Assembly (NCBI GenBank): GCA_900545265.1 | Contig: UQYI01000001.1 | Coordinates: 4,145 to 68,144 of the forward strand | Direction: 5' to 3' | DNA length: 64,000 nucleotides | From: an uncultured Eubacteriales bacterium | Lineage (GTDB): Bacteria; Bacillota; Clostridia; Christensenellales; CAG-138 | Shown: positions 3,001 through 23,204 of the stretch, in pieces | Layout: each line of letters opens with the position of its first letter | Position numbering within the stretch: the stretch's first letter is position 1 | Notes under the pieces: generated by a model | Seen by the model: the letters and a program-made list of their open reading frames with translations, nothing else | Database searches by the model: none | Told to the model about the DNA's origin: nothing | Position numbers and translations under genes: made by a program

Positions 3001-6000
3001 AAGTTCACATATCCGGAGCAGACAACCGTGCCGCTCGAGTTCAGGAACTGCAGCACCAGACGCTTGATTCCGTAGTCCTTGGTCGTTGTGCTGCCGCTGC
3101 TCGTATATATCTGCTGCTTGGTCTGCGGAATATTGTTGGAGGCGATCCATGCGCCGAAGGTGTAGGTATCACCCGTGCTACCGCTCAGGAAGGTTTGCTT
3201 GATTTTCTCCGCCTTCGACGTCCCGTTCATCTCGTACACCTTGCTGTCCAGGAACGACGGGTGCGTATCCCGCGCAGCGGCATACTTTGCGTCCGCCACA
3301 TCGACAATCGCACAGTAGTTGGCGTAATTCATGGTGTAGTTGCTCGTGCCGCTCGTGAAATCGCTGTTCATCACCATGTTGTAGCGATTCGGTGCTGCAC
3401 CCTTCTCTAACTGAATGGAGTCCACATACACCGTTCCGCTGCCCGCAGGCACGATTACCGCGACCGTGATCGTGCTCGACGCGGCGGTGAAGGTCAGGCT
3501 CTCGCGGTTCCAACCCGTACCGCCTGCCGTAACCGCCGGCGACTGGATTGTGCTGCTGCCATTTGTTACCTTCAGGTAGGCGGTGTTTAGCGTGCCGCTA
3601 AAGTACGCCGAAAGCGTATATGTTTGCCCCGACGTCACACTGACGCTCTGCGACAGCGTGCGTGCGGCGGAACCCGCCGTAATCTTGCAGGAATATGCGC
3701 CGGTATGCCGCCGGCTGGAATCATTCGTGAGGTTTCCGGAATCGCTCCGTGTCCATGATGAAGGCCAGGTGGATTCCTCAAAACCATGATTTTTCAGCAG
3801 ATTGACGACCGTCATCTGCATTTTGGACACGGCCTTAAGCTGCGTTACCGTCTGGCTGGCGGTATTGTATGTTGCAAAGACCGCCCGCCCCTCCGGGTCG
3901 GTCACGGATACCGGCTGGCCGATATTGTCTGTGTGGTAGACCGTTCTCCTGCCCTGCGCATCCGCCACGGTCGTCTTATTGCGGCCGTAGGTAAAGGTTA
4001 GGTACTGACCGTTTGTGCTGCCCGCTGCCTCGGCTGCGCGTGTAACGCGGTACGGCGCACCGGCAGTATAGCTGTAGGAGATGCTGTATGCGTCAATGTT
4101 CGTCGCTTTTGTCAGGCAGCGGTTACCGTTGTAAGTATAGGAGACCGTTTCCCCATCGGCATAGGTGATACCGGTCAGATTTGTGTCCGAATAGGCATAT
4201 GACACGTTCAGCCCATTCGGCGCGGTCACCTGCGAGAGCAGATCATTCGTATATGCGAGTGTCAACGCCTGCCCTGCGTCGTTGCCTGCGAGTTTTTCCG
4301 TGATGGAGGATATACGAAGGTTGGTGATCGTTGTGGTCGTATAGGCGATATTGGTCTCGTTTCCGTTTGCATCTCGGATGGTTGTCAGGCGTCCATTGGC
4401 AACAGAGGAATCGCACTCGAAGATCAGCTTATTGTCACCCTTGTCGGTGATGGTTACGGTTGTGCCGCTGATGGTCAGAACGGAATCCTTGTCCAGTTCA
4501 TTCACATACTGCGTCGTGCTGGTGCCGTCAGCCTTATAATAATGGCGCGTGCCATCGCCATCGATATACTGATAGTAGGTCGCCGTACCGCTCAGGTTGG
4601 TCACGGACACTTTTTTGAGCGATTGCGCGTAGTTGAGCCGCCAGCCATACCCGTAGCCGATGTTTGCGGTGCGGTCGTTGGTGTTATACACATGGGACAG
4701 CGAGATGGGCAGAACACCGTTGCTGACCGACGCATCGGCATGTGTCATGGTCAGGTTGCCGGAGAACGCATTGACCGATCCCGTACCTGCACGGCCGATG
4801 CTCTGGCTATAATATGCCCAGGTATCCTCAAGACCGGTAGAGTTCCGATAGATGACACTGTAGTAGGGCTTCCGGTTGGCATTTGCGGTATATTCGGAGG
4901 AAGACAGATCCGAATAGCTTCCGGTGTTGTACAGCGCAACGCCACGATTGCTGGACGGGGTTTCGTACCAATTCTTTACGATCTTGGTGATGTCGAAGGA
5001 AGTGTATTGTCCCGGCACGGTCGATACACCAAAGGAGTCCACCGCGGAATTATGTGCCGGTTTGGTATTCCAGGTGACGGTTGTGTGATTCCATGTACCC
5101 GTGATTGCCGACAGATTGATTTCCTTGTTTTCCTTGTTGGTATTGCTGTTATATCGGTTCAGATTCAATGTTGCTTTCAGGATTACATCGCCGCTTGACA
5201 ATGTGGGCAGGTTGGCATTTGGAATATAGATCAGGGCTTCATGCGACTTGCTGACACGCATGTACTGATAGGATGAATAGTTTCCGTTGCCCGAGCCGCT
5301 GTTGACAAAGGTATCCTGAACTGCGCTTGAGAAATTGATACTGACGTCCGGGTCAATGGAGAGGGGGTACTGGCGATCAGCACTTTGCAGCCATTCGGTA
5401 TCGGGAATCAGCGTGTAGGTGCAGGTGCCGGTATCCGCGTTAAACTCGGAGAGGTGCGCTTCAATCGCGCTGCTCTGTTCTCCAGCCGCGTCGTACATAA
5501 TCGCTTGTCCGAGCGTGAACACCGGCTGACCGCTGGCATTGACAAACGCAGTTGCTCCGGCTTCATCCGTCACGGGAGACACTCCCATCGCTTGGATCTC
5601 CACCGAGTAGGCGACAGCGCGTTCGGGAGCGGATGCAAGCGTGATATACTCGCGCAGCGTTTTGCCGGAGAGCACATAGCGCACGTTCAGGCCGGTAGCC
5701 GGATCGACATATGCAATTTCGGATTGAAGAGAGGAGGGGAAGCGCAGCTGCATATCGCGCTCTTCATCGGTCAGAGCAGCGACAGCTTCGGCTGATTCCG
5801 CAGAGAAAGTTTCAGTGTTTGTAACAATCTGTGCGACTGCATCCGTTATGGCGAGAGTGTCAAATGCACTGAGATCGAAAGCCGCTTCGGTCAGTTCGTC
5901 TTCAGCCGGGAGCTGTTCTTCGGAAGCGGCAGGTTCAGTCGGATTCGATTCCGCTTCCGGCGCAGGCGTTGCGGTAGGAGCAGTTTCTGCTTCGGGTTCG

Positions 6001-6734
6001 ATGATCTCCAACTCAAGGGTTGGCTCCTCAGTGCCAGGAAGCTCCGAATCGACTGCCGGATCGGCCGGCTGCGCATCCGTTTCAGATTGTGCGTCAGACG
6101 GTTCGCTCGTTTCCGTATCCACCATCTGGTCATTTTCCGGAGTTACTGCGGTTTCCGTCTCCGGTTCGGACTCAATAGACTGATCCGCTTCCGGTGGCAG
6201 AATGATCGGCTCAGTCGTGATCATCGGCTCGGGCGTCGGTTCCGGCGTCGGCTCCGGCAACGAGTCCGTTTCTGCACCGACAAAACGCCACGAGAGCGAT
6301 TGCCCGCCCGTTTCCACCGTCACCAACCGGTTGCTGCTGAACAGCGGCGCAAACGATACAATAAAGTCGCTCGCGGTGTTTCGATAGACCTGAGTGCCAT
6401 CTTCCAGCGTGACCAGCGTCAACGTATTATCGATGGGTTGCCATGCACCATTCATCAGGTAGTTGACCGGCTCGGCATATACAACGGCCTCGCGTGCGCC
6501 ATCCTCCCTGAGAAAGACGCGGATGCTTTCCGCTCTTCCGGCCGCATCTTCGCCCACCAGAGGACTATATGGAAGCTCTTGTGACCCTGAAAAGCTATTT
6601 GTCTCCGCATATGCTTCGATTGCCCGCTGTTCTTCTATCTCATCTGCGAGCGTCTTGGCCGGCGAGGCGATATAGTACACAAACATCATGACAGCCACAA
6701 GGCTCAAACTCAGAATCCGTTTGAATGCTTTCAT
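1..6734 (-). CDS. RHS/YD-repeat polymorphic toxin precursor RHS-1 (WapA-like), 3' end beyond window
   Basis: Absent from the ORF track because its stop lies left of base 1. The reverse frame from ATG 6734-6732 (RBS GGGAGAGGAAAC) has no stop down to base 1; I confirmed frame continuity at 5381, 980 and 428. Signal peptide MKAFKRILSLSLVAVMMFVYYIASPAKTLA. Acidic/PEPTPEPTPEP linker (~5830-6260). YPLSIDPDVSINF...TVTWNTKPA DNRLRE-like module (~5045-5370). NHGFEESTWPSSW CBM-like jelly-roll modules (~2850-3800). Many YD repeats. Core end FRYHGYVYDEETGWYYLLSRYYNPTVGRYLSADT...YAYCLNNPTTNYDPSG (780-980). Confidence 0.85.
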   Translation of the reverse strand, partial: MKAFKRILSLSLVAVMMFVYYIASPAKTLADEIEEQRAIEAYAETNSFSGSQELPYSPLVGEDAAGRAESIRVFLREDGAREAVVYAEPVNYLMNGAWQPIDNTLTLVTLEDGTQVYRNTASDFIVSFAPLFSSNRLVTVETGGQSLSWRFVGAETDSLPEPTPEPTPEPMITTEPIILPPEADQSIESEPETETAVTPENDQMVDTETSEPSDAQSETDAQPADPAVDSELPGTEEPTLELEIIEPEAETAPTATPAPEAESNPTEPAASEEQLPAEDELTEAAFDLSAFDTLAITDAVAQIVTNTETFSAESAEAVAALTDEERDMQLRFPSSLQSEIAYVDPATGLNVRYVLSGKTLREYITLASAPERAVAYSVEIQAMGVSPVTDEAGATAFVNASGQPVFTLGQAIMYDAAGEQSSAIEAHLSEFNADTGTCTYTLIPDTEWLQSADRQYPLSIDPDVSINFSSAVQDTFVNSGSGNGNYSSYQYMRVSKSHEALIYIPNANLPTLSSGDVILKATLNLNRYNSNTNKENKEINLSAITGTWNHTTVTWNTKPAHNSAVDSFGVSTVPGQYTSFDITKIVKNWYETPSSNRGVALYNTGSYSDLSSSEYTANANRKPYYSVIYRNSTGLEDTWAYYSQSIGRAGTGSVNAFSGNLTMTHADASVSNGVLPISLSHVYNTNDRTANIGYGYGWRLNYAQSLKKVSVTNLSGTATYYQYIDGDGTRHYYKADGTSTTQYVNELDKDSVLTISGTTVTITDKGDNKLIFECDSSVANGRLTTIRDANGNETNIAYTTTTITNLRISSITEKLAGNDAGQALTLAYTNDLLSQVTAPNGLNVSYAYSDTNLTGITYADGETVSYTYNGNRCLTKATNIDAYSISYSYTAGAPYRVTRAAEAAGSTNGQYLTFTYGRNKTTVADAQGRRTVYHTDNIGQPVSVTDPEGRAVFATYNTASQTVTQLKAVSKMQMTVVNLLKNHGFEESTWPSSWTRSDSGNLTNDSSRRHTGAYSCKITAGSAARTLSQSVSVTSGQTYTLSAYFSGTLNTAYLKVTNGSSTIQSPAVTAGGTGWNRESLTFTAASSTITVAVIVPAGSGTVYVDSIQLEKGAAPNRYNMVMNSDFTSGTSNYTMNYANYCAIVDVADAKYAAARDTHPSFLDSKVYEMNGTSKAEKIKQTFLSGSTGDTYTFGAWIASNNIPQTKQQIYTSSGSTTTKDYGIKRLVLQFLNSSGTVVCSGYVNFAADTDEWQFASGTVTATSSYAQMQIVVEYTDSLNVLYVDGLQLHKEQFATGYSYDSNGNLSGTVSLIGQQNSFGYDSNDNLTSMTDARGNTTTYTYDSKHNLLTSTSPEGVVTSNTYNDFGLATETKVGTEADYIRTTTTYDSASGIAINETDASGNTVTYTLDPVSRTRTAITDARNNTTTYTYGSPANYGRLQTITTEGLNPITYSYTTNGEIQSISRGGTSYNYSYDVWGRSLGLAVGEFSLSTNVFNSAGLLSEVEYGNGFAVKYSYDNLDRLIAVQQKLPGSTSYATAYEYVYNGDGELYEERNYLNNRALFREYDHSGRCIASIEKTFTGSSNSLTYGTVVSTYLYHYDANNNISRIQQSVAGSSWSMVYTYDKDNHGLTTTLENGVVLTNSYDAIGRVQSKQIGLSTPYSINVSYKNGVNGSSSILLDTYRNGTDDAYSYTYDANNNILSVAQGSTASSYVYDAANQLVRANIYNSSTDSYTAIYAYDGNGNLTSKTLYPYTTDELGTATSTIQYGYATEGWSDQLTSYNGQSIVYDTSGNPTVYLGQSLSWNGLQLTGVGSNISYAYDKDGIRQTKTIDTATTQYYYNGNVLMGTYDGINKLLFSYDDQSNVVAVDYNGTYYYYLRDGQGSIVKLIDGNGSTVVSYSYDPWGVCTTTGSMASTLGALNPFRYHGYVYDEETGWYYLLSRYYNPTVGRYLSADTLSSTGQGVLGYNMYAYCLNNPTTNYDPSGSLSFSNIFSGASLLSIGLAAVAIGATILTCGAAAPIMVAVAAATTTTGIVTVANGIAEVQEGLTATNDTSNDGQNFMRDAFFRGDKAAYEKQRDVIATVAEVGTFLCTAYIGIKGGVCFVAGTAVLTAAGQVPIESISEGDLVYASDPETGESGYKRVVQTFVNETDELVHLQYGGTTVTTTPTHPFYQPQKGWIDAIDLRAGDILVKSNGEYVVVEAVEHELLEEPITVYNFEVEGFHTYYVGDTSVLVHNDCTKPRS
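24..428 (-). other. Hint (intein-like) pre-toxin domain within the RHS-1 C-terminus
   Basis: Translation CFVAGTAVLTAAGQVPIESISEGDLVYASDPETGESGYKRVV...THPFYQPQKGWIDAIDLRAGDILV...PITVYNFEVEGFHTYYVGDTSVLVHN. It has the N-terminal Cys block and the C-terminal HN typical of Hint/intein folds. After HN the sequence reads DCTKPRS and runs off the window. Confidence 0.7.
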
Positions 6735-6967: not shown

Positions 6968-7095
6968 TTCAGAATTGTGGTGGTATTTGGGATGGTGCAA
7001 TTTGCCAACCAGAAAACATAATGCAAAGCTATTGCAAGTTCTTACACTATGTTCCCGCAAATCAAATACTGGCCATCTCGTTGAACTGGTCGCAA

Positions 7096-7175: not shown

Positions 7176-7230
7176 TTGTATTTGTATTGTTATTACTTTG
7201 TCCTTGCCGTCTACTCTTTCCGTCTCTCCG

Positions 7231-8682: not shown

Positions 8683-8767
8683 GTTTCTCCGCTCCTTTCT
8701 ACCCGTTCTGCCGCAAGAAAACCGGCGAACAGCTCCATCTCTTTTCCGAAACCCTTTCTGTCTTTCC

Positions 8768-10018: not shown

Positions 10019-10020
10019 GC

Positions 10021-10135
10021 AGTTGTCAAGGTGCCGTCAGTCAGAAACGTCGTGTTGTCCGCGCCTTCTCAATCTCTCCGCAGGCGTGGTACGCATACGA
10101 GCAGATCGGCTTCTTGCTTGCCGTGAGCCGGTTCC
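10021..10135 (-). pseudogene. Degraded RHS-body fragment upstream of the orphan cassette
   Basis: DNA similar to RHS-2 13521-13635. Translation ASKKPICSYAYHACGEIEKARTTRRF-stop-LTAP-stop compares with SNKKLIRSYAYNAYGDIETVTDNTSFLTGGTLTT in RHS-2, and it contains in-frame stops. Confidence 0.6.
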
Positions 10136-10144
10136 GTATCTTGC

Positions 10145-10875: not shown

Positions 10876-10993
10876 GGAATACCCTCATTTTTGTTGTCGT
10901 TGCGATCGTTGTAACGGGCAAATTCCGCATGCGCGGCGCATGGAGCGGCATGTTCGTCTTCCAACGCGTAGCGGCAGCACCCGGCGCCGTCGT

Positions 10994-11794
10994 TTAAGGG
11001 TTGCAGATCTCCACCACCAGCCTGATCTGATCCCCTTCTATAACAAGCCAACACGGCGTTTCAAAATATCCCCGTTCCATCAGGCCCAGTAAAATATCCC
11101 GTTTGACCAGCATATTGGCAATGTTTTCATCAAAACAGCTTATGACGCCTAGCGCCTGCTCCTGCAACGCGCACTGCATCTGCTCTTTCTGTACGTCTTT
11201 TTCAATCCAGACCGCATCCGACAATACCATGTCACATTCCGACACATAAATCTGGCCCTCTTGCTCAGAGGCAGAAACCACTCCGCCAATTCTGCGCTCC
11301 CAGTCATCGTACAGCGCTATGGGCGTACAAGGCAAAAGATCGGCTTTTATGTCATAGTAGGTATAAAAATCATAGTAGACGCCATAGCGGTTCGGCTTGC
11401 TGTAAGTCCTCAACAGTCCAATGCGGTATCGCCTGTCCCCGTGACGCAACCAAACCGGATATCCGTAACCTGCCGGTTCCTGATAATCCAGCAGCGGATG
11501 TCCCTGCTCAAGCAATCGGTGTTCATCCTGACAACCATCCAGAAAAACGTCTTCTCCAATTTCTATACTGCATGCCTGCAGGCAAAAAGCCTCTTCATCA
11601 AGATCATAGCAAAATCCAAAATCGCCAATCCAGCAAATGATATCACGCCCTACCTCATCACCGGAACAAACAGATACTACAGGCAACGCACCGTTTGCTG
11701 TTGGCTCGCGATTGTGCTCTCCCAATTCAGTTGAAGAACATGCGACTGTCATTACAATTGTAACAAGAATGAACAGACATACGATTTTCTTCAT
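10994..11794 (-). CDS. Lipoprotein, candidate immunity protein for the NlpC/P60 tip of RHS-2
   Basis: Track ORF 10994..11812. The likelier start is MKKIVCLFILVTIVMTVACSS (lipobox VAC) with AAGAGGA 8 nt upstream. The alternative ATG at 11812 overlaps the RHS-2 stop by 1 nt (TAATG). The gene is immediately 3' of the toxin gene. Confidence 0.75.
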   Translation of the reverse strand: MKKIVCLFILVTIVMTVACSSTELGEHNREPTANGALPVVSVCSGDEVGRDIICWIGDFGFCYDLDEEAFCLQACSIEIGEDVFLDGCQDEHRLLEQGHPLLDYQEPAGYGYPVWLRHGDRRYRIGLLRTYSKPNRYGVYYDFYTYYDIKADLLPCTPIALYDDWERRIGGVVSASEQEGQIYVSECDMVLSDAVWIEKDVQKEQMQCALQEQALGVISCFDENIANMLVKRDILLGLMERGYFETPCWLVIEGDQIRLVVEICNP

Positions 11795-11811
11795 GATTGT
11801 ATCCTCTTTCA

Positions 11812-14800
11812 TTACCCGCTATATCTGGCGTATCCTAAAAATTTTGCATTTTCGTTACCACCGTACATTTGATAATTTTCAACTGGTCTGAATGCTACTC
11901 CACCGCCGGATTCTGTTGCGTCTATCATATACCCATCACCAACATACACCGCAACATGGCAGGGACGACCCTCTTGCTTGGTCCAATAAATCAAATCCCC
12001 CGGAATCAAATCATCGGTAGTAAAGCTGTTTGTTTCGTAAAATTTCCATTTTTCATTGGCAGCTCCAAACTCTCCCGGGTTGTCACGTTTTAAATAATGC
12101 ACCTGTAAACGAGTGGTATTTGGAAAGCTAATATCCCCACTTGAATGAACCGCTGCTGCTACCAGTTCTGAACAATCCATGGTTCCAGGGGTTCGAACAT
12201 ACCTCTGTTGCGTAGCATCATATGGGGAATAAGGTGTTCCCAAATATTGGGCAGCAGTTTCAATCCATTGTAATGCTACAGTAGACGCCCCGGAACTTTT
12301 GGCCACCTGGATTGCTTTTTCACCGTCCGTTACTGCCCCTGCTGTCGGACTGGGAGTTGGGACCACCTGCATTCTTACAGGTGTAGGCTCCGGTTTCTCT
12401 GTAGGTTCCGGCTCGGGAGGTTGGTTACTACATCCTGTAGTAGCTGCCGTCACCAATGCAATCAATATAACGACCAGCCAGGAGGAATGCCCCGTCGGAT
12501 CGACCATGTTGACGGGGTTGTTGTTGCAGTAGGCATACAGGTGCTGCGTCCAGGGGGTAGAGGCGGAGCCGGTGTAGGTATCCTGCGACAGGAAACGGGC
12601 GGTGGCGGGGTTGTAGTAGCGGGCGTTCATGTAGAGCAGGCCGGAGGCATCCGCTACGCTACCGGTGAAAGTAACCTCGTTGAAGAACGTATCGCCCGTG
12701 CTGGTCGTCACGCCGAACTCGTCGTAGTCGTAGCTCTTGACGATGGAACCCTCGCCGTCCACGATGTTTGTCACGCTGCCACGGATATCGTACCGGTAGA
12801 AGAAGTAGTCGTCCGCATACGGGTCTTGCCCGGTAGCCGCCTGCCCCTCGAACCGCTTGCTCGCCACGATTGAACCCGCCGGGTCAAGGATGTTCTGTGT
12901 CTGCAGCACGTACTCGTTCACCGTCGTAAACAGCAGGGCAGAGCCCGTGTAGTAGAAGTGCGTAATGACCTCGTCCTCCACGCGCGTCACGCGCTGCCCC
13001 TGCGCGTTGTACGCATACGTCGCGCTCGTCGACAGCGGGATCACCGCGTTGTTCGAGATGTTTGTAGAGGTCAGCCGGTTCGCCAGATCGTAGCCATAGT
13101 TCGTGGTCGTCGTCACGCCCGTGCCCGTCTGCACCTGCTGCGTCTGGTTCCCCCGCGCGTCATAGGTGTAGGTCGTCACCGCCGTGCCCTGCTGCACCCG
13201 CGTCAGCTGGTTCAGGTAGTTGTAGGTATACGTCTCCGCCGTCTCCGTGCCCTGCTGCCGCGTGAGCCGGTTCCCCACCGCGTCGTACGTATACGTCGTG
13301 GTCGTCCCGTCGTACGCCGCCGAGATCAGGCGGTTGCCCAGGTCATACTGGTACGTCCGCGTCTTCATCGTGCTGCCGCTGTACGCCTCCGTCACCGCTT
13401 CGGTCAGGATGTTCCCGTTCCCGTCGTACGTCAGGTTCGTCTCCTCCCGCACCGTCCGCGTCTCCCCGTCCACGTCCGTATACGTCAGCTTCACCGGCAG
13501 GCCGAAATCGTTGTAGGTATATGCCAGTTCGGTTGTCAAGGTGCCGCCGGTCAGGAACGACGTGTTGTCCGTGACCGTCTCGATATCCCCATAGGCGTTA
13601 TACGCATATGAGCGGATCAGCTTCTTGTTGCTTGTTGGGGAGGTTGTGCTTGCCGAGCCCGCATCCAGATAGATCGCAGAGAGCCGCCCATCAGCATCAT
13701 AAGTATACCACAGGATGTGCAGCTCCGTATTGCCGGGATTGAACGAGCCCTGCGCGCTCTCCTTCGCGTATGAGATCGCCGTGACCTGCCCCGCGCTATT
13801 GTACCGGTAGTTCACTGCCAGCGCCCCGGCCTCCGCCTCCGTCTCCTGCCGCTGCTGCGTCACCCGCCCGTACTGGTCGTACGAATACGCCGTGGTCACG
13901 CTCTGCTGCGTCTCGCCGCTGCCGGTAATCTGCACCGCGCTCTCCAGACGGCTCCCACCATTGCTATAGGCGTAGGAGATGGCGATCTCCGGCGCTTGTG
14001 CCGATGCGGAGGCAAAGTACTGCTCGCTCACGACGTTGCCCACCGCATCGTAGGCATACCGCACGACGCTGCCGTCCTCCCGTGTGACTGACGTTACCTG
14101 CCCGTGCGCATCGTACGTATACGCCGTGGTCATGCTCTTCGTCGCGTCGTCCGGGTCGGTCACCACGTCGCGCAGCTTGCGCCCGCTGTTATCAAACACC
14201 GTGGTGGTTGTTACGCCTTTTGCGCTGGTCACAGCATTCGCCACCCCGCCGGTTACGCTCTGGTCGTAGGCATAGGCCGTCGTGGCCGTTACGCCAGAGG
14301 AGAGCGGCTGGCGCACCTCAGTGAGGCGGGAGAGAGCATCGTAGGTATAGGTGGTGGTGGTACCGCGGCCATCGGTGACGGAGGTGTTGTTACCCAACAT
14401 ATCATAGGCCGCCGAAGTTGTCAAATCAGCCGATGGGACATAACCGGAAAGCCTCTCGCCGTGACTGCCCAGCTTTGTACGGTTTGCTGCGGCAACGGCC
14501 GCTGTCAGCGTTCGATTGCCCAGCGCATCGTACTCTGCACGCACGACTCGATTGCCCGTTGCGCCTCCGAGAGTCTCCACCACGGTCTGGTTGCCCATGT
14601 AATCGTAGCGGTAGACGACCGTCATGCCTCCGCCAGTTTGCTGGACGGCACGGCCGTTTTGATCGTACCATGTGGTGGATGTGCGTTCCTCAGGATCGGT
14701 CACGGTCACGCGGCGCACGCCGTAGCTATCGCTGCCCAGATAGGTGTAACTGGTCGTCAGCGCTCCGTTGCCCGAACCAATGCGGGCGGTGCTCACGCGC

Positions 14801-17800
14801 CCCATACTGTCATAGGTATAGGTGGTGACCACACCCTCCACATCGCGTGCGGTCAACGCAAGACCCGCCACGGAATAGGTGTACGCTTCGTACGCGCCAT
14901 TTGCATATGTTTTCTTCGTGAGCAGGCCGCGCCAGTCGTATTCGTATGCTACGGCATCCTCCATTCCGTCTGTCGCCGCTGTAGCGGTGCGGCCATAATC
15001 GTCATACGTATAGCGCACGACAGAGAAAGGCGTCTGCCCCGCGCCGTTGGCGCTCGATATGGTGGTCACGCGGCCCTTGGCATCGTAAACATACGACACA
15101 TATCCGCCGTTGCGGTCGGTCGTGGCGATCAGATAGCCATAGTCGTTGTAGGCGTTCGTGGTCATTTTGCCGGCAGGATCGACAGCTGTCAGCACCTGCC
15201 CGGCAGCATTATAAGTATAGGTTGTGGTCTGGTAACTGCTGCCGTTTTTGACCTTGACGGTTTTGGGCTGATTATACTGATAGTTCTGGTAGAGCGTTTC
15301 TCCTAAGAGCGTATCCCCCTGCGTGATCGCCATGCGCGTCAGGTCGCGCGTCGTTTCATCGTAGGTGTAGCTCTGCACGATGGGCGTTTCGCTTGCTGCG
15401 CCCTCCACGAGGTTGGTGTAGCTGACCGAAGCAAGCAGCAGATCGTCGGTATAGGTGTAGTTGATCGGATGACCGTCTGCGTCCTCACACCGCGTGATCA
15501 CTCCGGTCGCGGGAACGTAGGTATAGGTGGCAACGGTGTATGCTGCATCATCCCCGATCTTTGTCTTGACGGTGGTGGTAGCTGCGCTGTATGCAAATTC
15601 GGCAGCCTCCTGCCCGCCTGGGTACGCTATGCCAACCAGTCGGCCAGCATTATCATACGTCAGTGTATAGACCCGGTTGTCCGGATTCTTGATCGTGGAG
15701 AGGCCATTCTCCGAATAGGTGAAGATTTCGGTATACCCGCTATTGCCGGAGAGCGCGTGGGTGGCTGAAATGAGCCGGTCCTGTGCATCGTAGGCATAGG
15801 TATAGGTGATACTGGGCTGGTCGCCCTCCGTGCTTGTCCAGGTGAGCGACTCGAGCATATCGATATGCTCGTTGACATACAAGTAATCCACCTCGTTGGG
15901 AAGCACTTCTTCGTAATTTGTGGCTTCCGGTGCTCTGCTTGCCCGCGTGGATGGGCTTGTGCGCTGCACCTTGTAGGTGAGCGTCAGCTTGTCACCAACG
16001 CTGTTTGCCACTTCCACGACATTGCCACGCGCATCATACGTAAGCGTTAACGCTGCACCGGCAAGGTTGGTGAAAGATTTCAAACGCATAGTCTGCGCGT
16101 CGAAATGGTAGGTGATGTTGTCCTTGCGCGTGATCGTGTATTCGGCTGGTGCATCCGCCGTGGCTTCGATATAGGCAAGCACCATCCGTGTACCGGGCGC
16201 GCTTGCATACGTGCCGTCCTCCTGCAGCGCAAAGCGGTGTAACGAACCATCGCCATCCTTGAGGATCAAGCCCACTTCTGTTCCGATCGAATCGTATTCG
16301 CGCATCAGTACAGTATTGAACGAATAATCCCACCCCACGCCGAGCGCCGTCTTGCTTGTCGTCTGGCTGTTGAACGTACGCCGCATGGCCATAGCAAAAA
16401 ATGGATCGGCAACCACGAGATCGCTCGTTTGATATACCACATTGCCGTTGGCAACGTTGACATACCCTGCGCCACTATCCGTGCTGAACTGAGCATAACT
16501 CCAGTAATCCTGCAGTCCCAACTGCTTCTCCAGCTCATCCTCATCCACAACAGTGCCAACCACCTGATTCGTTGGTTCGCTAACACGCCCATTCTTTACA
16601 GCGGCGACAAGATAATAGAATGTCTTGCCATAGTTCAGGTTGAAGTCCGACCAATTGCAATCGGTCAGTCCACTGGCGACAAGTGTACTGTTGGAAAGGG
16701 TGAAATACGGAGTTTCGCTACGGTAGACGCTATATGTCACACCTTCGGTTTCGGATGGAGCCCAGCGCAGCACAGTCAAGTTGTTTGCGCCTGAAAAGGC
16801 GGAAAGATTGTTTGGTGGGTCAATCAGTGAGACCGTCTGCGCTTCACCCGGCATGGCAGCACGTACCTCCAGCGACCAGCTGCTGAGCACAGGTTTTTCA
16901 CCGTCTGCATTCGCCTCGAGCGTGGCACGAAGCACAATTTCCTCTCCTCCGGCTGTGACAGCGTTCCAAGTGCTCTGGTCATCAGCGGCTACGGTAGGAA
17001 CGGCCTGCCAGGTTGTGCCACCATCCGTTGATAGATGATAGGTGATGCCTGCACCATCCGGGATGCTGGCGTCCACGATCAGACGAGTTGCCTCAGCCTC
17101 GCCGGCAAGCAGACGGCGGGTGCTCTGGACGGTACCGGACTCGCTCGCATTTGATAGCGTTAGACCGCCGCTTTCGAGAACCTCCGTGTTGTTCAGTTCG
17201 GTAAATCCACGCGCATCTGTCAAAAATGCAGTCTGAATTAGTTCGCTGGAGCCATAGAAGATATAGCGGGTTTCCGCATAGATTTGGTCGATCGTCGGAG
17301 ATGCTGTGGCGGTGCCCTTTCCCAACGTAGCGCGTATACGTACGCTGCTGCTGGTGTTGCTGCCGTACAGATACAGCCGGTTCGCTTTTGTAACGGTTAC
17401 ACCGCCATCCGTGGAAACCGGCGTAATTGTCTGCCATGTATCGCCATCCACCGAAATCTCATATCCTATCGACGAACCAGATGGTACCGTCTGGTTGACG
17501 ATCAGATCAATATAGGAAATCGTACCGCTTAGCGCAAGTACAGGAGTGATAAGCATGCCGCTTTCGCCCGTCAGTGCTGCAATGCCGTCGGTGACTGCTA
17601 CACCATCAAGCGTGAAGCCGCTGGTTCCATTCGCTGGCAGAAAGAGGTGCTGCTTTTCGTAAGTTGAATGGCTATAGACTGGTTCACCTGCTTCGTCGAA
17701 GGCCATGACATAGAGATAGTGTGTGGAACCTTCAGCAAACCCTGACGGGAGTGTGAAGGACAAGCCGGGCTCGTCCTCTGTCTGAGTATCTCGTACCACA

Positions 17801-18228
17801 TTATCCACTACAAATTTTGCTCCGCTATATATCGCGGTATCGGAGGAATCGGCCTTTGTATAGGTTGCCGCCCATGTACCGTTCGCAGAGTCAGTCTGAA
17901 TCGTATGCGTCAGCCCTGCATCGACCTGCCGGCTACCCTCGGCCTTGGTCCAAGTCGCCGTTTGGCTGGCTGTGTTGCCCGCCTGATCCCATGCGGTCAA
18001 GGTCAACGTATACGTCTGCTCATTGTCGAGTCCGGTGATGTTCCAGCGTGCAATAATCGCATCCGTTAGCGTTGTCGTGCCGGTTGCAATTGTTGTTTTT
18101 TTCCGTAGAAGTTCCTGTCCCGAGATGATACTCCAGTTTCCATCCGGAAAAATCATTTGCGTTTGTGGTAATTGTCGCGCGTACCTGCACAATCCCACCC
18201 GTGTCCGAGACGACAGTCGGGCCCGCAA
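11812..18228 (-). CDS. RHS/YD-repeat body of RHS-2 with C-terminal NlpC/P60 domain (5' part displaced by frameshift)
   Basis: 2138-aa ORF with dozens of YD repeats (YTYD, YAYD, YEYD...). Core end LYMNARYYNPATARFLSQDTYTG...YAYCNNNPVNMVDPTGH, followed by a 224-aa tip. The first ~45 listed residues (MRARLSSRTRVGLCRY...) look out-of-frame. The real sequence joins the 18020-20536 ORF at the A7 run. Confidence 0.9.
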   Translation of the reverse strand: MRARLSSRTRVGLCRYARQLPQTQMIFPDGNWSIISGQELLRKKTTIATGTTTLTDAIIARWNITGLDNEQTYTLTLTAWDQAGNTASQTATWTKAEGSRQVDAGLTHTIQTDSANGTWAATYTKADSSDTAIYSGAKFVVDNVVRDTQTEDEPGLSFTLPSGFAEGSTHYLYVMAFDEAGEPVYSHSTYEKQHLFLPANGTSGFTLDGVAVTDGIAALTGESGMLITPVLALSGTISYIDLIVNQTVPSGSSIGYEISVDGDTWQTITPVSTDGGVTVTKANRLYLYGSNTSSSVRIRATLGKGTATASPTIDQIYAETRYIFYGSSELIQTAFLTDARGFTELNNTEVLESGGLTLSNASESGTVQSTRRLLAGEAEATRLIVDASIPDGAGITYHLSTDGGTTWQAVPTVAADDQSTWNAVTAGGEEIVLRATLEANADGEKPVLSSWSLEVRAAMPGEAQTVSLIDPPNNLSAFSGANNLTVLRWAPSETEGVTYSVYRSETPYFTLSNSTLVASGLTDCNWSDFNLNYGKTFYYLVAAVKNGRVSEPTNQVVGTVVDEDELEKQLGLQDYWSYAQFSTDSGAGYVNVANGNVVYQTSDLVVADPFFAMAMRRTFNSQTTSKTALGVGWDYSFNTVLMREYDSIGTEVGLILKDGDGSLHRFALQEDGTYASAPGTRMVLAYIEATADAPAEYTITRKDNITYHFDAQTMRLKSFTNLAGAALTLTYDARGNVVEVANSVGDKLTLTYKVQRTSPSTRASRAPEATNYEEVLPNEVDYLYVNEHIDMLESLTWTSTEGDQPSITYTYAYDAQDRLISATHALSGNSGYTEIFTYSENGLSTIKNPDNRVYTLTYDNAGRLVGIAYPGGQEAAEFAYSAATTTVKTKIGDDAAYTVATYTYVPATGVITRCEDADGHPINYTYTDDLLLASVSYTNLVEGAASETPIVQSYTYDETTRDLTRMAITQGDTLLGETLYQNYQYNQPKTVKVKNGSSYQTTTYTYNAAGQVLTAVDPAGKMTTNAYNDYGYLIATTDRNGGYVSYVYDAKGRVTTISSANGAGQTPFSVVRYTYDDYGRTATAATDGMEDAVAYEYDWRGLLTKKTYANGAYEAYTYSVAGLALTARDVEGVVTTYTYDSMGRVSTARIGSGNGALTTSYTYLGSDSYGVRRVTVTDPEERTSTTWYDQNGRAVQQTGGGMTVVYRYDYMGNQTVVETLGGATGNRVVRAEYDALGNRTLTAAVAAANRTKLGSHGERLSGYVPSADLTTSAAYDMLGNNTSVTDGRGTTTTYTYDALSRLTEVRQPLSSGVTATTAYAYDQSVTGGVANAVTSAKGVTTTTVFDNSGRKLRDVVTDPDDATKSMTTAYTYDAHGQVTSVTREDGSVVRYAYDAVGNVVSEQYFASASAQAPEIAISYAYSNGGSRLESAVQITGSGETQQSVTTAYSYDQYGRVTQQRQETEAEAGALAVNYRYNSAGQVTAISYAKESAQGSFNPGNTELHILWYTYDADGRLSAIYLDAGSASTTSPTSNKKLIRSYAYNAYGDIETVTDNTSFLTGGTLTTELAYTYNDFGLPVKLTYTDVDGETRTVREETNLTYDGNGNILTEAVTEAYSGSTMKTRTYQYDLGNRLISAAYDGTTTTYTYDAVGNRLTRQQGTETAETYTYNYLNQLTRVQQGTAVTTYTYDARGNQTQQVQTGTGVTTTTNYGYDLANRLTSTNISNNAVIPLSTSATYAYNAQGQRVTRVEDEVITHFYYTGSALLFTTVNEYVLQTQNILDPAGSIVASKRFEGQAATGQDPYADDYFFYRYDIRGSVTNIVDGEGSIVKSYDYDEFGVTTSTGDTFFNEVTFTGSVADASGLLYMNARYYNPATARFLSQDTYTGSASTPWTQHLYAYCNNNPVNMVDPTGHSSWLVVILIALVTAATTGCSNQPPEPEPTEKPEPTPVRMQVVPTPSPTAGAVTDGEKAIQVAKSSGASTVALQWIETAAQYLGTPYSPYDATQQRYVRTPGTMDCSELVAAAVHSSGDISFPNTTRLQVHYLKRDNPGEFGAANEKWKFYETNSFTTDDLIPGDLIYWTKQEGRPCHVAVYVGDGYMIDATESGGGVAFRPVENYQMYGGNENAKFLGYARYSG
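11815..12279 (-). other. NlpC/P60 cysteine peptidase domain (toxin tip of RHS-2)
   Basis: YLGTPYSPYD...GTMDCSELVAAAV (catalytic Cys context) ...GDLIYW...CHVAVYVGDGYMIDA (catalytic His context). It is preceded by a Pro/Glu/Thr linker and the hydrophobic segment SSWLVVILIALVTAATTGC (12430-12486). Confidence 0.8.
12491..13005 (-). repeat. Direct repeat, copy 2 (RHS core 3' segment, RHS-2)
   Basis: See 9429-9942. Same orientation, 3062 bp apart. Confidence 0.85.
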
Positions 18229-20536
18229 TTACTGGTGCGATGATGTCGCGCTGATATGGTGTGGAAGAGCACTTTGCTGCACCAATGTTGCCCGCTGCAT
18301 CCTTGGCTCTGACCCACACGTACTGCGTACCAACAGCTGGCTCGGTGAGCGTATGTGTAAGCGCGTTGGAAGAGGGAAGATCTGAGAAGGATTCGGGTGC
18401 CGTAGTGTTTGAAGTGCTCAGCGCGTATTGGTAGATAACAGCCGAGGCATCGCTTGCAGCCGTGTGCGTAACGGTAACATTGCCGGTTGTCCAAGTAGTC
18501 GGTGAGACCGTCACACTGCTGGGTGCTGTGGGCGGTGTCAGATCGCCAACCGTAATCGTATTTGACACGGCATATTCGGAGCTGCCCACGCTGTTCTTTG
18601 CACGAACTTTTGCATAGTAGGTTGTGTTATCATTCTGGTTTGAAAATGTATAGCTGGTTCCTGTTCTGCTGACTGTCTGTACAAGCGTTCCCGCACGGTA
18701 TAGCTGCACATCATAACCGGTCGCGCCGGACGCTGCGCTCCACGATACGGTGATGGTAGCCTTTGTACCATTCTGCGTGTAAGCAGTTGTTATAGCTGTC
18801 GGCGCATTGGGCGCAGAGTTATATGTGACGACCAGCTTGGGCCTGTTTGCTGTGGTCGCGCCTTCGGTCGATGTAAAACGCTTGTAACGCGCTTCGGTCT
18901 CGTTCGGTATTTTCATGACGAATTTGCGTAGCTTACTGCTGTTGCCATACCATTCTTGCACCTTCGCCGTCATATCCCAGCTATAAGAACCGATGTTTTT
19001 AACCACCGTGCTGGAAAAATGCGTTGATTCAAAGGAAGGTTGTGTATTCCATGTCACAGTAGTAATGGAGAAGTTTGAAGTCACCTGATGCAGCCGTACC
19101 GATGGCGCGGAATTACCGGCATATTCCTCGTAGCAGGTCAAAGTCGCACCGGTGATCTGTTTGTTGGTTCCAATGGCGGTGATGAGGCTGGTAAAATCAA
19201 AGTAAACGCGTAACCGGTCGCCATTGGACATACAGCCCATCTTCAGGCCGGTCTCGGTATGATAGTTCCTAGTGCCACTGTATTGATCTGTCACATGTGT
19301 ATCCGCAATGTAGTTTGCACCACTATAGGTGGCCGAGGGATCTAATGATACTGGATACACGCGATCGCTGCTTGTCAACCATTCGCGATTCGGCGTAAGC
19401 GTGTACAGATAGCTTCCGCCCTCCAGAAGTTCGAGCTTTACATCAATGTCGTACGAAAAATTACAGTCTATATCTGATGAATCATACATCACTGGTGCTG
19501 GGATTGCGGCGACAATCTCTGCTGTGCGGCTATCAACCAAATAGGTATTGCCGTCCTCACGAAGCAAGGGTACCAGACCGCTCAACGTCAACAGAAAAGA
19601 GAAGCTGGCCTGCGTTGGAATCGAAAGAAACACAATATCTTCTTTCAGACCATTGCCCGTTGGCGTCAATACCAAGTCAATGTTGTTGCCATACACGTTC
19701 TTATAGCGTAGGCTACTATATGTTGAACGACTCGCTTCGGCATCTCCGTTCATACTGAAGATGCTGCTTCCATCAGCAAGATAACGTATATCAAAGGCAT
19801 TCAACGGCAAAAGGCCGTTTTGCGGTACCGGTGCAAGCGAAATTGAGCGACCGTCACGGCTTAGCGTTACAAGCCGGTTTTCGGTGATTGTTGTTTGAAA
19901 ATCTATGCGTACCGGCGACTTGGCGCTCGTAAGCGTCTGGAGACCATCTTGTGATCCCACTGTGATTTCAGGCTCAATCATGCGCCACTTGCCGCTGGAA
20001 GTCTTGTAACGGACGGGCGAGAGGTATAGCTCAACCGTGCCGCTTCCATCCTCATCTTCATTACGGATGATGTATGCCTCGAGATCTTCTGCGGTTAGTT
20101 CCGGTTGCAGTTCGAGCAACTCTTCATACTCGGCCATGGTTATAACATCACGCTCTTGCTTCGTGCCAGAAAACAGAGAGATACGTGTATCGATCTGTTC
20201 TTCTTCTAACTGCAATCCATCTTGCGATGTAATAGATGCATCTGGAAGGGAGGATGATTCTACGGCTTCTTCGCCATCTTCATCCGATTGTCCCGGCACC
20301 GTTTCTGACGGTTCCGCGACCGATTCAGCTTCTTCTCCTTGTGATGCTGGAGCGGATTCGTCCTCTGATGGCTCTGAAGTTGACAAAGTTATATCATTAA
20401 AAGACTCCCTTGCCACATTGGGTGAACTCATCTTTCCTGTGCTCAACGCCAATGCTGTTGCAGGTGAAATAATGTATCCTGACAAGAGAAAAACTGCAAC
20501 CAGAAACACACTCAGCGCTCGCCTGAACCCCTTCAT
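18020..20536 (-). CDS. N-terminal module of RHS-2: signal peptide, acidic linker, DNRLRE-type domain, FN3/Ig-like repeats
   Basis: 838-aa ORF. Signal MKGFRRALSVFLVAVFLLSGYIISPATALA. VYPVSLDPSATYSG...GDRLRVYFDFTSL...TVTWNTQPSF (DNRLRE-like). Then PNAPTAIT...YYAKVRAKNSVGSS and PPTAPSS...YVWVRAKDAAGN FN3-like units. The last ~25 residues (EKNNNCNRHDNANGCDYCTLEHHRTRQ) look like out-of-frame read-through. Confidence 0.85.
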   Translation of the reverse strand: MKGFRRALSVFLVAVFLLSGYIISPATALALSTGKMSSPNVARESFNDITLSTSEPSEDESAPASQGEEAESVAEPSETVPGQSDEDGEEAVESSSLPDASITSQDGLQLEEEQIDTRISLFSGTKQERDVITMAEYEELLELQPELTAEDLEAYIIRNEDEDGSGTVELYLSPVRYKTSSGKWRMIEPEITVGSQDGLQTLTSAKSPVRIDFQTTITENRLVTLSRDGRSISLAPVPQNGLLPLNAFDIRYLADGSSIFSMNGDAEASRSTYSSLRYKNVYGNNIDLVLTPTGNGLKEDIVFLSIPTQASFSFLLTLSGLVPLLREDGNTYLVDSRTAEIVAAIPAPVMYDSSDIDCNFSYDIDVKLELLEGGSYLYTLTPNREWLTSSDRVYPVSLDPSATYSGANYIADTHVTDQYSGTRNYHTETGLKMGCMSNGDRLRVYFDFTSLITAIGTNKQITGATLTCYEEYAGNSAPSVRLHQVTSNFSITTVTWNTQPSFESTHFSSTVVKNIGSYSWDMTAKVQEWYGNSSKLRKFVMKIPNETEARYKRFTSTEGATTANRPKLVVTYNSAPNAPTAITTAYTQNGTKATITVSWSAASGATGYDVQLYRAGTLVQTVSRTGTSYTFSNQNDNTTYYAKVRAKNSVGSSEYAVSNTITVGDLTPPTAPSSVTVSPTTWTTGNVTVTHTAASDASAVIYQYALSTSNTTAPESFSDLPSSNALTHTLTEPAVGTQYVWVRAKDAAGNIGAAKCSSTPYQRDIIAPVIAGPTVVSDTGGIVQVRATITTNANDFSGWKLEYHLGTGTSTEKNNNCNRHDNANGCDYCTLEHHRTRQ
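18096..18102. repeat. A7/T7 homopolymer at the RHS-2 frameshift
   Basis: Plus strand has ttttttt; the coding strand reads GGAACTTCTACGGAAAAAAACAACAATTGC. With A6 the reading becomes GTSTEKTTIATGTTTLTDAIIARWNITG, which continues the Ig-like domain into the 2138-aa frame. Confidence 0.85.
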
Positions 20537-20687
20537 TCGCCATTTCCTCCATATTCATTTGTTTTGAGTAGGTTTGTAAAAGAGACTGAAAACAGGTCGG
20601 TCGGGTAGGATTCCTTCTACTACAGCCAAAGCGGATATGGAAAGTTTCTTATGTCTCAATCATACATGTTTTGGAAGATATATCCAT

Positions 20688-20719
20688 CCATATTGTTTTA
20701 TGTTTACAAAGAGTTCACA
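20688..20719 (-). promoter_or_regulatory. Conserved upstream box, copy 2 (upstream of RHS-2)
   Basis: CCATATTGTTTTATGTTTACAAAGAGTTCACA. The 17-nt core at 20701-20717 is identical to 6858-6874 and lies 165 nt upstream of the RHS-2 ATG. Confidence 0.5.
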
Positions 20720-20912
20720 CACTATCATCTACATGCGTATCAAAATAATGTAATTGATTCGTGATGAATCAACAGAAAGGATATTGCCATCGACAAGGAT
20801 TAATGTTATTTTAAGATGGTTAGTGCAAAAGCATATGGTTGGTTATAAATGTTCAACTTTCCTCTGATTTCTAAAGCTGAGTAATATATGTAGATTTATG
20901 CTAAGCGGCTAT

Positions 20913-20994
20913 GATTGCAAGAAAAACGTATTTGACAATATTGTTTTTCAAATACGCACGCAATCTTGCAATCGGACAAAAGTCTGTCTATAGG
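20913..20994 (+). promoter_or_regulatory. Nested inverted repeats (operator-like) overlapping a candidate promoter of the WYL gene
   Basis: GATTGCAAG-aaaaa-CGTATTTGA-caatattgttttt-TCAAATACG-cacgcaat-CTTGCAATC: two perfect 9-bp palindromic arm pairs. The right outer arm contains TTGCAA (20966-20971), followed by a 17-nt spacer and TATAGG (20989-20994). Confidence 0.5.
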
Positions 20995-22537: not shown

Positions 22538-23204
22538 TCTGATTGCGAGGAACGTGCTGGACGGATATGACCGCCGCTTACTGATCGGCAAGCCAACCGC
22601 GATTCCAATTGATGATATCATTGAATCGCTGGGCCTTATTGTGGAGTACCATTATCTCCGCAACTGTGACCGCATCTGCGGAGAAACGGTGTTTGATACA
22701 GCTGAAGTTATCGTGTATGACATGGAAAAACGGAAGTATAAAACCATCATCGTCAAAGGTGGCACGATTATTGCTGACGCACACCTGTTGGACAGCGGCA
22801 ACGAGGGAAGGTTGCGATTCACCTTCGCTCACGAATTGGCGCATTGGATACTGCACAAGAACATCTTTTGTGGCTCACAGTATTCCGCAGCCATGACAAA
22901 AGTGCCGATCACAGAGGACTGCAAGTTAAGCTCTGAGGTTGACCGCGCCATAGAGCGTCAAGCAGATATGCTTGGTACAGCCCTTATTATGCCCATTACA
23001 CAGGTCAAGCGGGCGTACTATGCCATCAGTCGTAATCAAGGCAGCACACAGATTTTTTCACGCAGCAGATTGACAAATTTACCGGGTCATTGCATCCTAT
23101 CAGAGGAAACACCGCTATCGGTGGGGAGCATTGCTTCCTCTTCTGGGCTTCCTTTGTTGAAGTTCAGGCTGATAGCCGGTGTTTTTTTATGTTCACGTAT
23201 TTAA
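22497..23204 (+). CDS. ImmA/IrrE-family (COG2856) zinc metallopeptidase
   Basis: Track ORF 22341..23204 trimmed to MNNGIRYY, which follows GGAGGGGAG. HEXXH motif FAHELAHWILH, with downstream ERQADMLGTALIMP. Paired with the XRE gene, as in ImmR/ImmA-type modules. Confidence 0.8.
   Translation: MNNGIRYYRQPVIDLIARNVLDGYDRRLLIGKPTAIPIDDIIESLGLIVEYHYLRNCDRICGETVFDTAEVIVYDMEKRKYKTIIVKGGTIIADAHLLDSGNEGRLRFTFAHELAHWILHKNIFCGSQYSAAMTKVPITEDCKLSSEVDRAIERQADMLGTALIMPITQVKRAYYAISRNQGSTQIFSRSRLTNLPGHCILSEETPLSVGSIASSSGLPLLKFRLIAGVFLCSRI

What the first reader, a model, noticed from the sequence alone, without database searches (positions are those of the whole stretch)
18020..18228. RHS-2 is split at an A7 homopolymer: phase-variable switch, decay or assembly error
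The 838-aa ORF carries the signal peptide, DNRLRE and FN3 modules. The 2138-aa ORF carries the YD shell and the tip. They overlap by 209 nt in different frames. Both ORF ends look like out-of-frame junk (EKNNNCNRHDNANG... and MRARLSSRTRVGLCRY...). Removing one A from GGAAAAAAACAAC (18096-18102) gives the continuous Ig-like sequence WKLEYHLGTGTSTEKTTIATGTTTLTDAIIARWNITGLDNEQTYTLTLTAWDQAGN. That would make a single protein of roughly 2900 aa, with the same architecture as the unsplit RHS-1. A 7-nt run can slip during replication or transcription, so expression of the toxin could be stochastic. It could equally be a homopolymer sequencing error.
Basis: seen in the sequence. Interest (0 to 1): 0.6.

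Follow-up and report, generated by a model that had tools for sequence, protein, structure and literature searches.

The report
Frameshifted RHS toxin gene, likely decaying
One extra A in a short run of A's splits a giant antibacterial RHS toxin gene of an uncultured gut Clostridia bacterium, and the evidence points to an ordinary recent inactivating mutation in a gene this species is losing, not to a genetic switch or an assembly error.

Summary
On the minus strand, an A7 run (window 18096-18102) lies in the 209-nt overlap of an 838-aa ORF and a 2138-aa ORF.

- **Single lesion.** The extra A is the only insertion or deletion in 8,050 nt compared with an intact 2,902-aa copy (96.4% identical, A6). 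A second 97%-identical copy also has A6.
- **The split cuts a domain.** Nineteen uninterrupted homologues (2,684-3,037 aa) read straight across the site. It falls in the middle of a predicted FN3/Ig-like beta-sandwich.
- **The run is not conserved.** Relatives at 80-84% identity have GAGAAGAC or GAGAAAAC there.
- **Probably not an assembler artefact.** A7 appears in three other assemblies (ENA, NCBI, Logan), each 100% identical to the window, though probably all from one sample.
- **The gene is being lost.** The common allele in this species (52-54 contigs, at least four samples, 99.96% identical) lacks 4.85 kb, including the promoter, the N-terminal half and this site. Other assemblies carry different frameshifts.
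- **The frameshift is recent.** The downstream frame shows no stop codons and no relaxed constraint.

Verdict: a real, recent loss-of-function frameshift at the gene's longest run, in a decaying toxin locus that keeps its putative immunity gene. Phase variation and slippage rescue are not supported. Interest is low.

The parts
18096..18102 (-). A7 run (T7 on the + strand) and site of the frame break. Intact near-identical copies have A6 here, read as GAA-AAA-ACA.
18020..20536 (-). Upstream ORF of 838 aa. Residues 1-813 (18098-20536) are native: signal-peptide-like N-terminus, CBM96/DNRLRE and fn3 modules. Residues 814-838 (18023-18097) are an out-of-frame tail. A GGAGG ribosome-binding site precedes the ATG.
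11812..18228 (-). Downstream ORF of 2138 aa. Codons 1-44 are out-of-frame. From codon 45 (18096) it is native: rest of the Ig-like stalk, DUF6531, RHS/YD shell, the core end ...DPTGH, and an NlpC/P60 tip. No candidate start codon has a good Shine-Dalgarno sequence.
17944..18232 (-). FN3/Ig-like beta-sandwich domain cut by the frameshift. The break falls after the third of seven predicted strands, between model residues 75 and 76.
   Evidence: mean pLDDT 87.4; best PDB matches are FN3/Ig-like domains, with weak E-values.
11815..12486 (-). Variable toxin tip after the core end (NlpC/P60 peptidoglycan hydrolase). Homology to relatives that carry other tips stops at 12487.
10994..11812 (-). 272-aa gene immediately downstream, a candidate immunity protein. 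It is kept in all alleles seen, including the 5'-deleted ones.
   Evidence: It has no Pfam hit.
16088..20941 (-). Segment of about 4,852 bp absent from the common allele of this species. It holds the promoter, the whole upstream ORF, the A-run and the first 713 codons of the downstream ORF. The junction shares a 2-nt AT microhomology and leaves a 1425-aa remnant that starts at Met714.

Best explanation
RHS-2 is one gene of about 2,907 codons. It encodes a Sec-exported, WapA-like RHS/YD-repeat antibacterial toxin built from a signal peptide, CBM96/DNRLRE, an FN3/Ig-like stalk, DUF6531, the RHS shell and an NlpC/P60 tip. A candidate immunity gene follows it.

In this strain a single A was inserted into the gene's longest homopolymer (A6 to A7), most likely by replication slippage. 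Translation from the real start now ends 25 junk codons after the run. The product is an 838-aa secreted N-terminal fragment ending inside a beta-sandwich domain.

The shell and toxin lie in a frame with no signal peptide and no convincing start codon, so the toxin is most likely not delivered. The mutation is recent. It is one of several independent ways in which this species is losing the toxin-delivery part of the locus while keeping the tip remnant and the candidate immunity gene.

Shown here: the lesion, its uniqueness, the intact relatives, the non-conservation of the run, and the other lesions in the population.

Inferred: replication slippage as the cause, loss of function, and loss of the toxin while the candidate immunity gene is kept.
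For: - **Single lesion.** The extra A is the only indel in 8,050 nt against the intact L023 gene (96.4% identical, A6), and the only one in 5,802 nt against L015 (96.8%, A6).
- **Homologues read through.** Nineteen uninterrupted homologues of 2,684-3,037 aa align so that the window's two pieces abut exactly. The site is inside a confidently predicted seven-strand beta-sandwich.
- **The run is not conserved.** The equivalent sequence is GAGAAGACG in L016 and GAGAAAACG in L017.
- **Other assemblies agree.** A7 appears with 100% identical flanks over 12-22 kb and no gaps in ENA ERZ28596438, NCBI GCA_900524325.1 and Logan ERR414266. Contig lengths differ from each other and from the window's contig.
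- **No indel noise.** There are no indels in 12,281 nt against assemblies of other samples. A crude screen of 6,510 homopolymers found no other convincing homopolymer-split long gene among the nine highest-ranked candidates inspected.
- **Other lesions in the population.**
  - The 1425-aa 5'-deleted remnant P0069 is on 52 contigs (54 index blocks) from at least four samples, 99.96% identical to the window.
  - P0074 carries a one-base deletion at codon ~154 that is not in a homopolymer.
  - P0073 carries a one-base deletion in a CCC at downstream codon ~1307.
- **The frameshift is recent.**
  - There are no stops in 1,870 downstream codons.
  - Codon changes specific to the window's branch are 64 synonymous and 27 non-synonymous.
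  - The intact L023 branch has 65 and 28.
  - dN/dS is 0.12-0.26.
- **Most slippage-prone run.** The gene has only two runs of 6 or more nt in 8.7 kb, and the frameshift hit the longer one.
- **No independent start.** The real start has GGAGG, while no downstream start has a good Shine-Dalgarno sequence.
Against: - A7 has therefore not been verified at read level, and a minority A6 subpopulation cannot be excluded.
- The four A7 assemblies are all 100% identical and probably come from one human-gut sample. They are independent assemblers, not independent biology.
- The downstream frame is fully intact. That is equally what a functional on/off switch would look like.
- Loss of function is inferred. 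No expression data are available.
Confidence: 0.75

Rival explanations
1. Phase-variable contingency switch. The A6/A7 tract changes length at an elevated, selected rate, so toxin production is stochastic: on at A6 and off at A7.
For: Both lengths occur among 96-97% identical sequences. The rest of the gene is undamaged.
Against: - The tract has only 6/7 nt. From my own knowledge, known A/T or G/C contingency tracts are usually 8 or more nt.
- The tract is not conserved. It is interrupted in relatives at 80-84% identity.
- It is formed by the ordinary codons GAA-AAA-ACA in the middle of a structural domain, about 28% of the way into the gene.
- The genome holds 589 A/T runs of 7 or more, so the run has no special status.
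- The same gene suffers irreversible lesions in conspecifics, which argues for relaxed or negative selection and not for regulated switching.
Confidence: 0.08
2. Sequencing or assembly error. The real sequence is A6 and the gene is intact.
For: - It is a single-base homopolymer difference.
- The genome is a draft of 36 contigs.
- A7 is known only from assemblies that are 100% identical to one another, probably from one read set.
- The downstream frame is perfectly intact.
Against: - Four assemblies with different contig lengths from different pipelines give A7: the window's genome, ENA, NCBI and Logan.
- There are no gaps in 22.5 kb between them, and none in 12.3 kb against other samples.
- No other convincing homopolymer-split long gene was found in the genome.
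- From my own knowledge, short-read consensus errors at a 7-nt run are rare.
Confidence: 0.07
3. Recoding. Transcriptional slippage or +1 ribosomal slippage on the A-run restores the frame in a useful fraction of products, so the gene is still functional.
For: - A tRNA-Lys on AAA could re-pair one base forward within the run.
- RNA polymerase is known to slip on A/T runs (PMC1088944, PMC5574713).
- The downstream frame is intact.
Against: - The split organisation is absent from all 19 homologues, and the run is not conserved.
- In most genomes, selection against slippage-prone runs becomes evident at about 9 nt. The sites that are actually used are 9A, and sometimes 8A (PMC1088944).
- Polymerase slippage in homopolymers mostly adds one base, and deletions there are rare (PMC5574713). 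Rescue here would need one base fewer or two more.
- No Shine-Dalgarno-like or stop-codon stimulator is seen next to the run.
Confidence: 0.05

Closest known systems
WapA-type Sec-dependent RHS/YD-repeat toxins of Gram-positive bacteria (Bacillus subtilis WapA, Streptococcus suis WapA; PMC12704120, PMC4436062)
   Same: An N-terminal signal peptide, an RHS/YD shell, a core that ends in ...DPxGH, a variable C-terminal toxin and a gene for a likely immunity protein immediately downstream.
   Different: RHS-2 is much larger. It has a CBM96/DNRLRE module and a long FN3/Ig-like stalk, and its tip is an NlpC/P60 peptidoglycan hydrolase. In this strain the gene is interrupted.
Orphan rhs modules and C-terminal displacement or rearrangement at rhs loci (PMC2935791 as cited in PMC13183296; PMC3150448; PMC3967940)
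   Same: The species' common allele is a 5'-truncated shell, tip and immunity remnant. The window also holds an orphan tip cassette sharing a 519-nt, 92%-identical core-end repeat with RHS-2. The intact relative L023 carries a tip 89.5% identical to that orphan.
   Different: The lesion asked about is a point frameshift, not a displacement. The 4.85-kb deletion has only 2-nt microhomology, so it is not homologous recombination between core repeats.
Homopolymer-mediated phase variation (contingency loci of Neisseria, Haemophilus, Campylobacter and Helicobacter; own knowledge)
   Same: A length change in an intragenic mononucleotide run toggles the reading frame.
   Different: The run is short (6/7 nt), is not conserved, and arises from ordinary codons inside a domain. 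Within-population length variation could not be assessed, because no reads were available.
Frameshifted genes rescued by transcriptional slippage at poly(A) runs (PMC1088944; endosymbiont cases discussed in PMC5574713)
   Same: A one-base indel in an A-run within an otherwise intact ORF.
   Different: The known cases use runs of about 9 or more (sometimes 8) and mostly depend on insertion of one base. Here the run is 7 nt, and rescue needs one base fewer or two more.

Membership tests
RHS/YD-repeat polymorphic toxin (WapA-like, Sec-dependent) | RHS/YD repeats that form the shell | tested here: met
   PF05593 with E=2.6e-57 in 7 stretches, plus DUF6531 (PF20148), in the downstream ORF. Homologues are annotated with TEN_YD-shell.
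RHS/YD-repeat polymorphic toxin (WapA-like, Sec-dependent) | Conserved core end (PxxxxDPxGH) followed by a variable toxin tip | tested here: met
   ...NNPVNMVDPTGH is followed by an NlpC/P60 domain (PF00877, E=1.3e-11). Similarity to relatives that carry other tips ends exactly at window 12487.
RHS/YD-repeat polymorphic toxin (WapA-like, Sec-dependent) | N-terminal Sec signal peptide | tested here: inconclusive
   Seen by eye only. The N-terminus reads MKGFRR, then a hydrophobic stretch, then ...ATALA. No signal-peptide predictor was available.
RHS/YD-repeat polymorphic toxin (WapA-like, Sec-dependent) | Cognate immunity gene immediately downstream | tested here: inconclusive
   A 272-aa ORF abuts the stop codon and is retained in every allele. 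It has no family hit, and its function was not tested.
Phase-variable contingency locus (simple-sequence repeat) | A tract in which a length change shifts the reading frame | tested here: met
   A7 here against A6 in L015, L023 and L024.
Phase-variable contingency locus (simple-sequence repeat) | A tract maintained, with length polymorphism, across strains and homologues | tested here: not met
   The run is interrupted in L016 (GAGAAGACG) and L017 (GAGAAAACG). Most conspecific strains lack the region altogether.
Phase-variable contingency locus (simple-sequence repeat) | Length heterogeneity within a population | not testable with these tools
Programmed frameshift or transcriptional slippage gene | Overlapping-ORF organisation and slippery motif conserved among homologues | tested here: not met
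   All 19 homologues are single uninterrupted ORFs, and the motif is not conserved.
Programmed frameshift or transcriptional slippage gene | A run long enough for efficient slippage (about 9 A/T, sometimes 8) | tested here: not met
   The run is 7 nt. The length criterion comes from PMC1088944.
Frameshift pseudogene (recent) | A single frame-disrupting lesion relative to intact orthologues, reproduced in other assemblies | tested here: met
Frameshift pseudogene (recent) | Independent inactivating lesions of the same gene in the population | tested here: met
   A 4.85-kb 5' deletion and two other one-base deletions, in P0073 and P0074.

The most novel reading that the evidence does not exclude
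The A6/A7 run works as a slow reversible on/off switch, or is bypassed at a low rate by polymerase or ribosome slippage. A minority of cells would then still make and export the roughly 300-kDa toxin, giving bet-hedged antagonism in a gut commensal.
Probability: 0.08. Interest if true: 0.45.

Novelty: already known. Interest (0 to 1): 0.18.

Why it matters
Taken alone, this is an ordinary frameshift pseudogene. For annotation, the two ORFs should be treated as one disrupted gene, not as two proteins.

The population picture is modestly useful. One species of uncultured gut Clostridia shows at least four independent lesions in the same giant RHS toxin gene:
- the extra A described here;
- two different one-base deletions;
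- a 4.85-kb 5' deletion that is the common allele.

Every allele examined in genomic context keeps the downstream 272-aa candidate immunity gene. This fits the known theme that costly toxin-delivery genes are lost while protection against neighbours' toxins is kept. It also gives a concrete locus in which to study that process in metagenomes.

Tried and rejected
- **Allele survey in JGI metagenome contigs.** Two pattern scans across the run found nothing.
- **GTDB genome scan with the downstream piece.** It found only one other locus, DXWI01000009.1. None of the 16 other genomes of the genus has the region.
- **Genome-wide test for homopolymer errors.**
  - I checked whether adding or removing one base at each of 6,510 runs merges long open frames. 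This produced 32 candidates.
  - Most were ordinary gene boundaries or non-coding frames.
  - It has low power, and I use it only as weak evidence against systematic error.
- **Independent translation of the downstream ORF.** No start codon with a good Shine-Dalgarno sequence was found.
- **A natural two-gene arrangement.** P0003 (810 aa) at first looked like a conserved short form. It is in fact a truncation followed by unrelated DNA.
- **Literature search for phase-variable RHS genes.** Nothing relevant was found.
- **What I did not build.** The two pieces were always analysed apart.

Full report
**1. What is there**

The gene lies on the minus strand. The + strand reads T7 at 18096-18102, which is GGAAAAAAACAAC in gene sense.
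- ORF 18020..20536(-) encodes 838 aa.
- ORF 11812..18228(-) encodes 2138 aa.
- They overlap by 209 nt, and the downstream frame is +1 relative to the upstream one.

Pfam places the domains as follows:
- Upstream ORF: CBM96 (the DNRLRE region, residues 407-572) and fn3 (589-655).
- Downstream ORF: DUF6531, seven RHS-repeat stretches (E=2.6e-57) and a C-terminal NlpC/P60 domain.

By eye, the N-terminus looks like a Sec signal peptide and the core ends with ...DPTGH. The toxin tip is a peptidoglycan hydrolase, so this is an antibacterial weapon. I saw no evidence that it acts on animals or plants.

RHS-1 (3..6734, minus strand) is not built the same way. It goes from CBM96 straight to DUF6531 and ends in PT-HINT.

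**2. The frame break sits at the run, and the run is the only lesion**

Two near-identical copies exist elsewhere:
- L023/L024 (Logan SRR16327203 and SRR16327223) carry an uninterrupted 2,902-aa gene, P0072. It is 96.4% identical in DNA from the start codon to the core end.
- L015 (GTDB genome G086, record DXWI01000009.1, 'Clostridiales bacterium HRGM_Genome_3519') shares window 18289..12487 at 96.8% identity.

In both alignments the only insertion or deletion is one A fewer in this run, A6 against A7.

At protein level the window's two pieces abut exactly (...GTGTSTEK | TTIATG...) against 19 uninterrupted homologues of 2,684-3,037 aa, down to about 32% identity.

I predicted the structure of the corresponding segment of the intact relative, using a 21-sequence alignment.
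- It gives a seven-strand beta-sandwich with mean pLDDT 87.4.
- The break falls between strands 3 and 4.
- The best PDB matches are FN3 and Ig-like domains. E-values are weak (5e-3 to 3e-2), but the fold class is consistent.

The split therefore cuts a folded domain. It is not a natural gene boundary.

**3. The run is not a conserved device**

In relatives at 80-84% DNA identity, the same codons read GAG-AAG-ACG (L016) and GAG-AAA-ACG (L017). The A6 run of the close copies is simply GAA-AAA-ACA.

The gene has only two runs of 6 or more nt in 8.7 kb, where genome-wide density would predict about 13. The frameshift hit the longer of the two. The genome holds 589 A/T runs of 7 or more, so an A7 has no special status.

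**4. Real or artefact?**

The indirect evidence is as follows:
- The exact 838-aa product, junk tail included, is on record from NCBI, ENA and Logan.
- Three loci from those sources carry A7 and are 100% identical to the window over 12.5-22.5 kb with no gaps:
  - ENA ERZ28596438 (sample SAMEA2338653), contig of 292 kb;
  - NCBI GCA_900524325.1, contig of 82 kb;
  - Logan ERR414266, contig of 12 kb.
- The window's own contig is 202 kb. That makes four different assemblies, probably of one sample.
- Against assemblies from other samples, the window shows 5 substitutions and no indel in 12,281 nt.
- A crude genome-wide screen found no other convincing homopolymer-split long gene among the nine highest-ranked of its 32 candidates.

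This makes an assembler artefact unlikely. It leaves only a systematic read error, which is rare for short reads at 7-nt runs (own knowledge).

**5. The population context**

The protein cluster that holds the 838-aa ORF also holds P0069 (1425 aa, on 52 contigs). P0069 is residues 714-2138 of the downstream ORF at 99.93% identity.

Its loci L019-L022 come from four different sample or assembly records, and the index lists 54 blocks. They are the same chromosomal locus at 99.96% identity, with the WYL gene upstream, the 272-aa gene downstream and RHS-1 further on.

These loci lack about 4,852 bp (window ~16088-20941). The missing segment holds the promoter, the whole N-terminal ORF, the A-run and 713 codons of the downstream ORF. 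The junction has only a 2-nt microhomology.

Other assemblies carry further lesions:
- P0074 has a one-base deletion at codon ~154, not in a homopolymer.
- P0073 has a one-base deletion in a CCC at downstream codon ~1307, on the already deleted allele.

A 70%-identical relative (P0003, L002) is truncated about 26 nt upstream of the run and continues into unrelated AT-rich DNA.

In G086, the module that is 97% identical to RHS-2 is joined out of frame to an RHS-1-like N-terminal half.

The gene is thus repeatedly disrupted in nature, often irreversibly. The 272-aa candidate immunity gene is kept in the 5'-deleted and A7 loci that were examined in genomic context.

**6. Age of the lesion**

- The downstream frame has no stop codon in 1,870 codons.
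- dN/dS is 0.12-0.26 against the intact relatives.
- Codon changes specific to the window's branch number 64 synonymous and 27 non-synonymous.
- The intact L023 branch has 65 and 28.

There is no sign of relaxed constraint, so the frameshift is recent relative to about 1.5% sequence divergence.

**7. Consequences (inferred)**

The real start codon has a GGAGG ribosome-binding site. No start codon in the downstream frame has a good one.

The expected product is an exported 838-aa fragment that ends inside a domain. The shell and toxin, which lack a signal peptide, are probably not made or not exported.

Rescue by slippage would need one base fewer or two more in the mRNA, or a +1 ribosomal slip.
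- In most genomes, selection against slippage-prone A/T runs becomes evident at about 9 nt. The sites that are used are 9A, and occasionally 8A (PMC1088944).
- Polymerase slippage in homopolymers mostly adds one base, and deletions there are rare (PMC5574713).

A trace of full-length product cannot be excluded, but nothing suggests it is selected.

**8. Verdict**

My weights for the four readings are:
- about 0.75: a real, recent loss-of-function frameshift at the gene's most slippage-prone run, in a toxin locus that this species is losing;
- about 0.08: a phase-variable switch;
- about 0.07: a sequencing error;
- about 0.05: functional recoding.

The kind of feature is already known: a frameshift pseudogene, and rhs locus decay that leaves orphan remnants with their candidate immunity gene (PMC3150448, PMC3967940, PMC4436062).

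Earlier notes of this scan on the same window describe the NlpC/P60 tip and the 515-bp core-end repeat. My results agree with both.

Noticed in passing
window 16088-20941 (L019-L022): The common allele of this species lacks about 4.85 kb of RHS-2: the promoter plus the first ~1,526 codons of the gene. The junction has a 2-nt AT microhomology and leaves a 1425-aa remnant starting at Met714, 79 nt from the divergent WYL gene. The allele is on 52-54 contigs from at least four samples.
   Followed up: yes
L015:4109-9352 and 9229-15516 (G086, DXWI01000009.1): A MAG placed in another genus carries a hybrid gene. Residues 1-1674 are 91% identical to the window's RHS-1. They are joined out of frame, at a 13-nt shared string (AACATTGGTGCAG, window 18289), to a 97%-identical copy of the RHS-2 stalk and shell. 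This could be a rearrangement between the two rhs genes, horizontal transfer, or a mis-binned contig.
   Followed up: partly
L002:4867-5300: A 70%-identical relative of the N-terminal ORF (P0003, 810 aa) loses homology about 26 nt upstream of the position of the A-run and continues into AT-rich unrelated DNA and non-rhs genes. Three independent breakpoints (this one, G086 at 18289 and the A-run) lie within about 200 nt of one another.
   Followed up: partly
window 20077 region and 14320 region (proteins P0074, P0073): Other assemblies of the same gene carry different one-base deletions. One is a C lost from GGCAT at codon ~154. The other is a C lost from CCC at downstream codon ~1307, on the 5'-deleted allele.
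   Followed up: partly
window 6773-9943 vs L023:9530-12707: The intact relative P0072 carries, as its active tip and partner gene, a cassette 89.5% identical to the window's orphan cassette. RHS-2 and the orphan share a 519-nt, 92%-identical core-end repeat (12487-13005 and 9425-9942). This is consistent with tip swapping at this locus.
   Followed up: partly
window ~23047-23053 (L019-L022): Conspecific strains carry an extra islet of about 4-6 kb here that is absent from the window. It holds GmrSD_N, a phage-type integrase, an HTH_17 gene and PemK in varying combinations.
   Followed up: no
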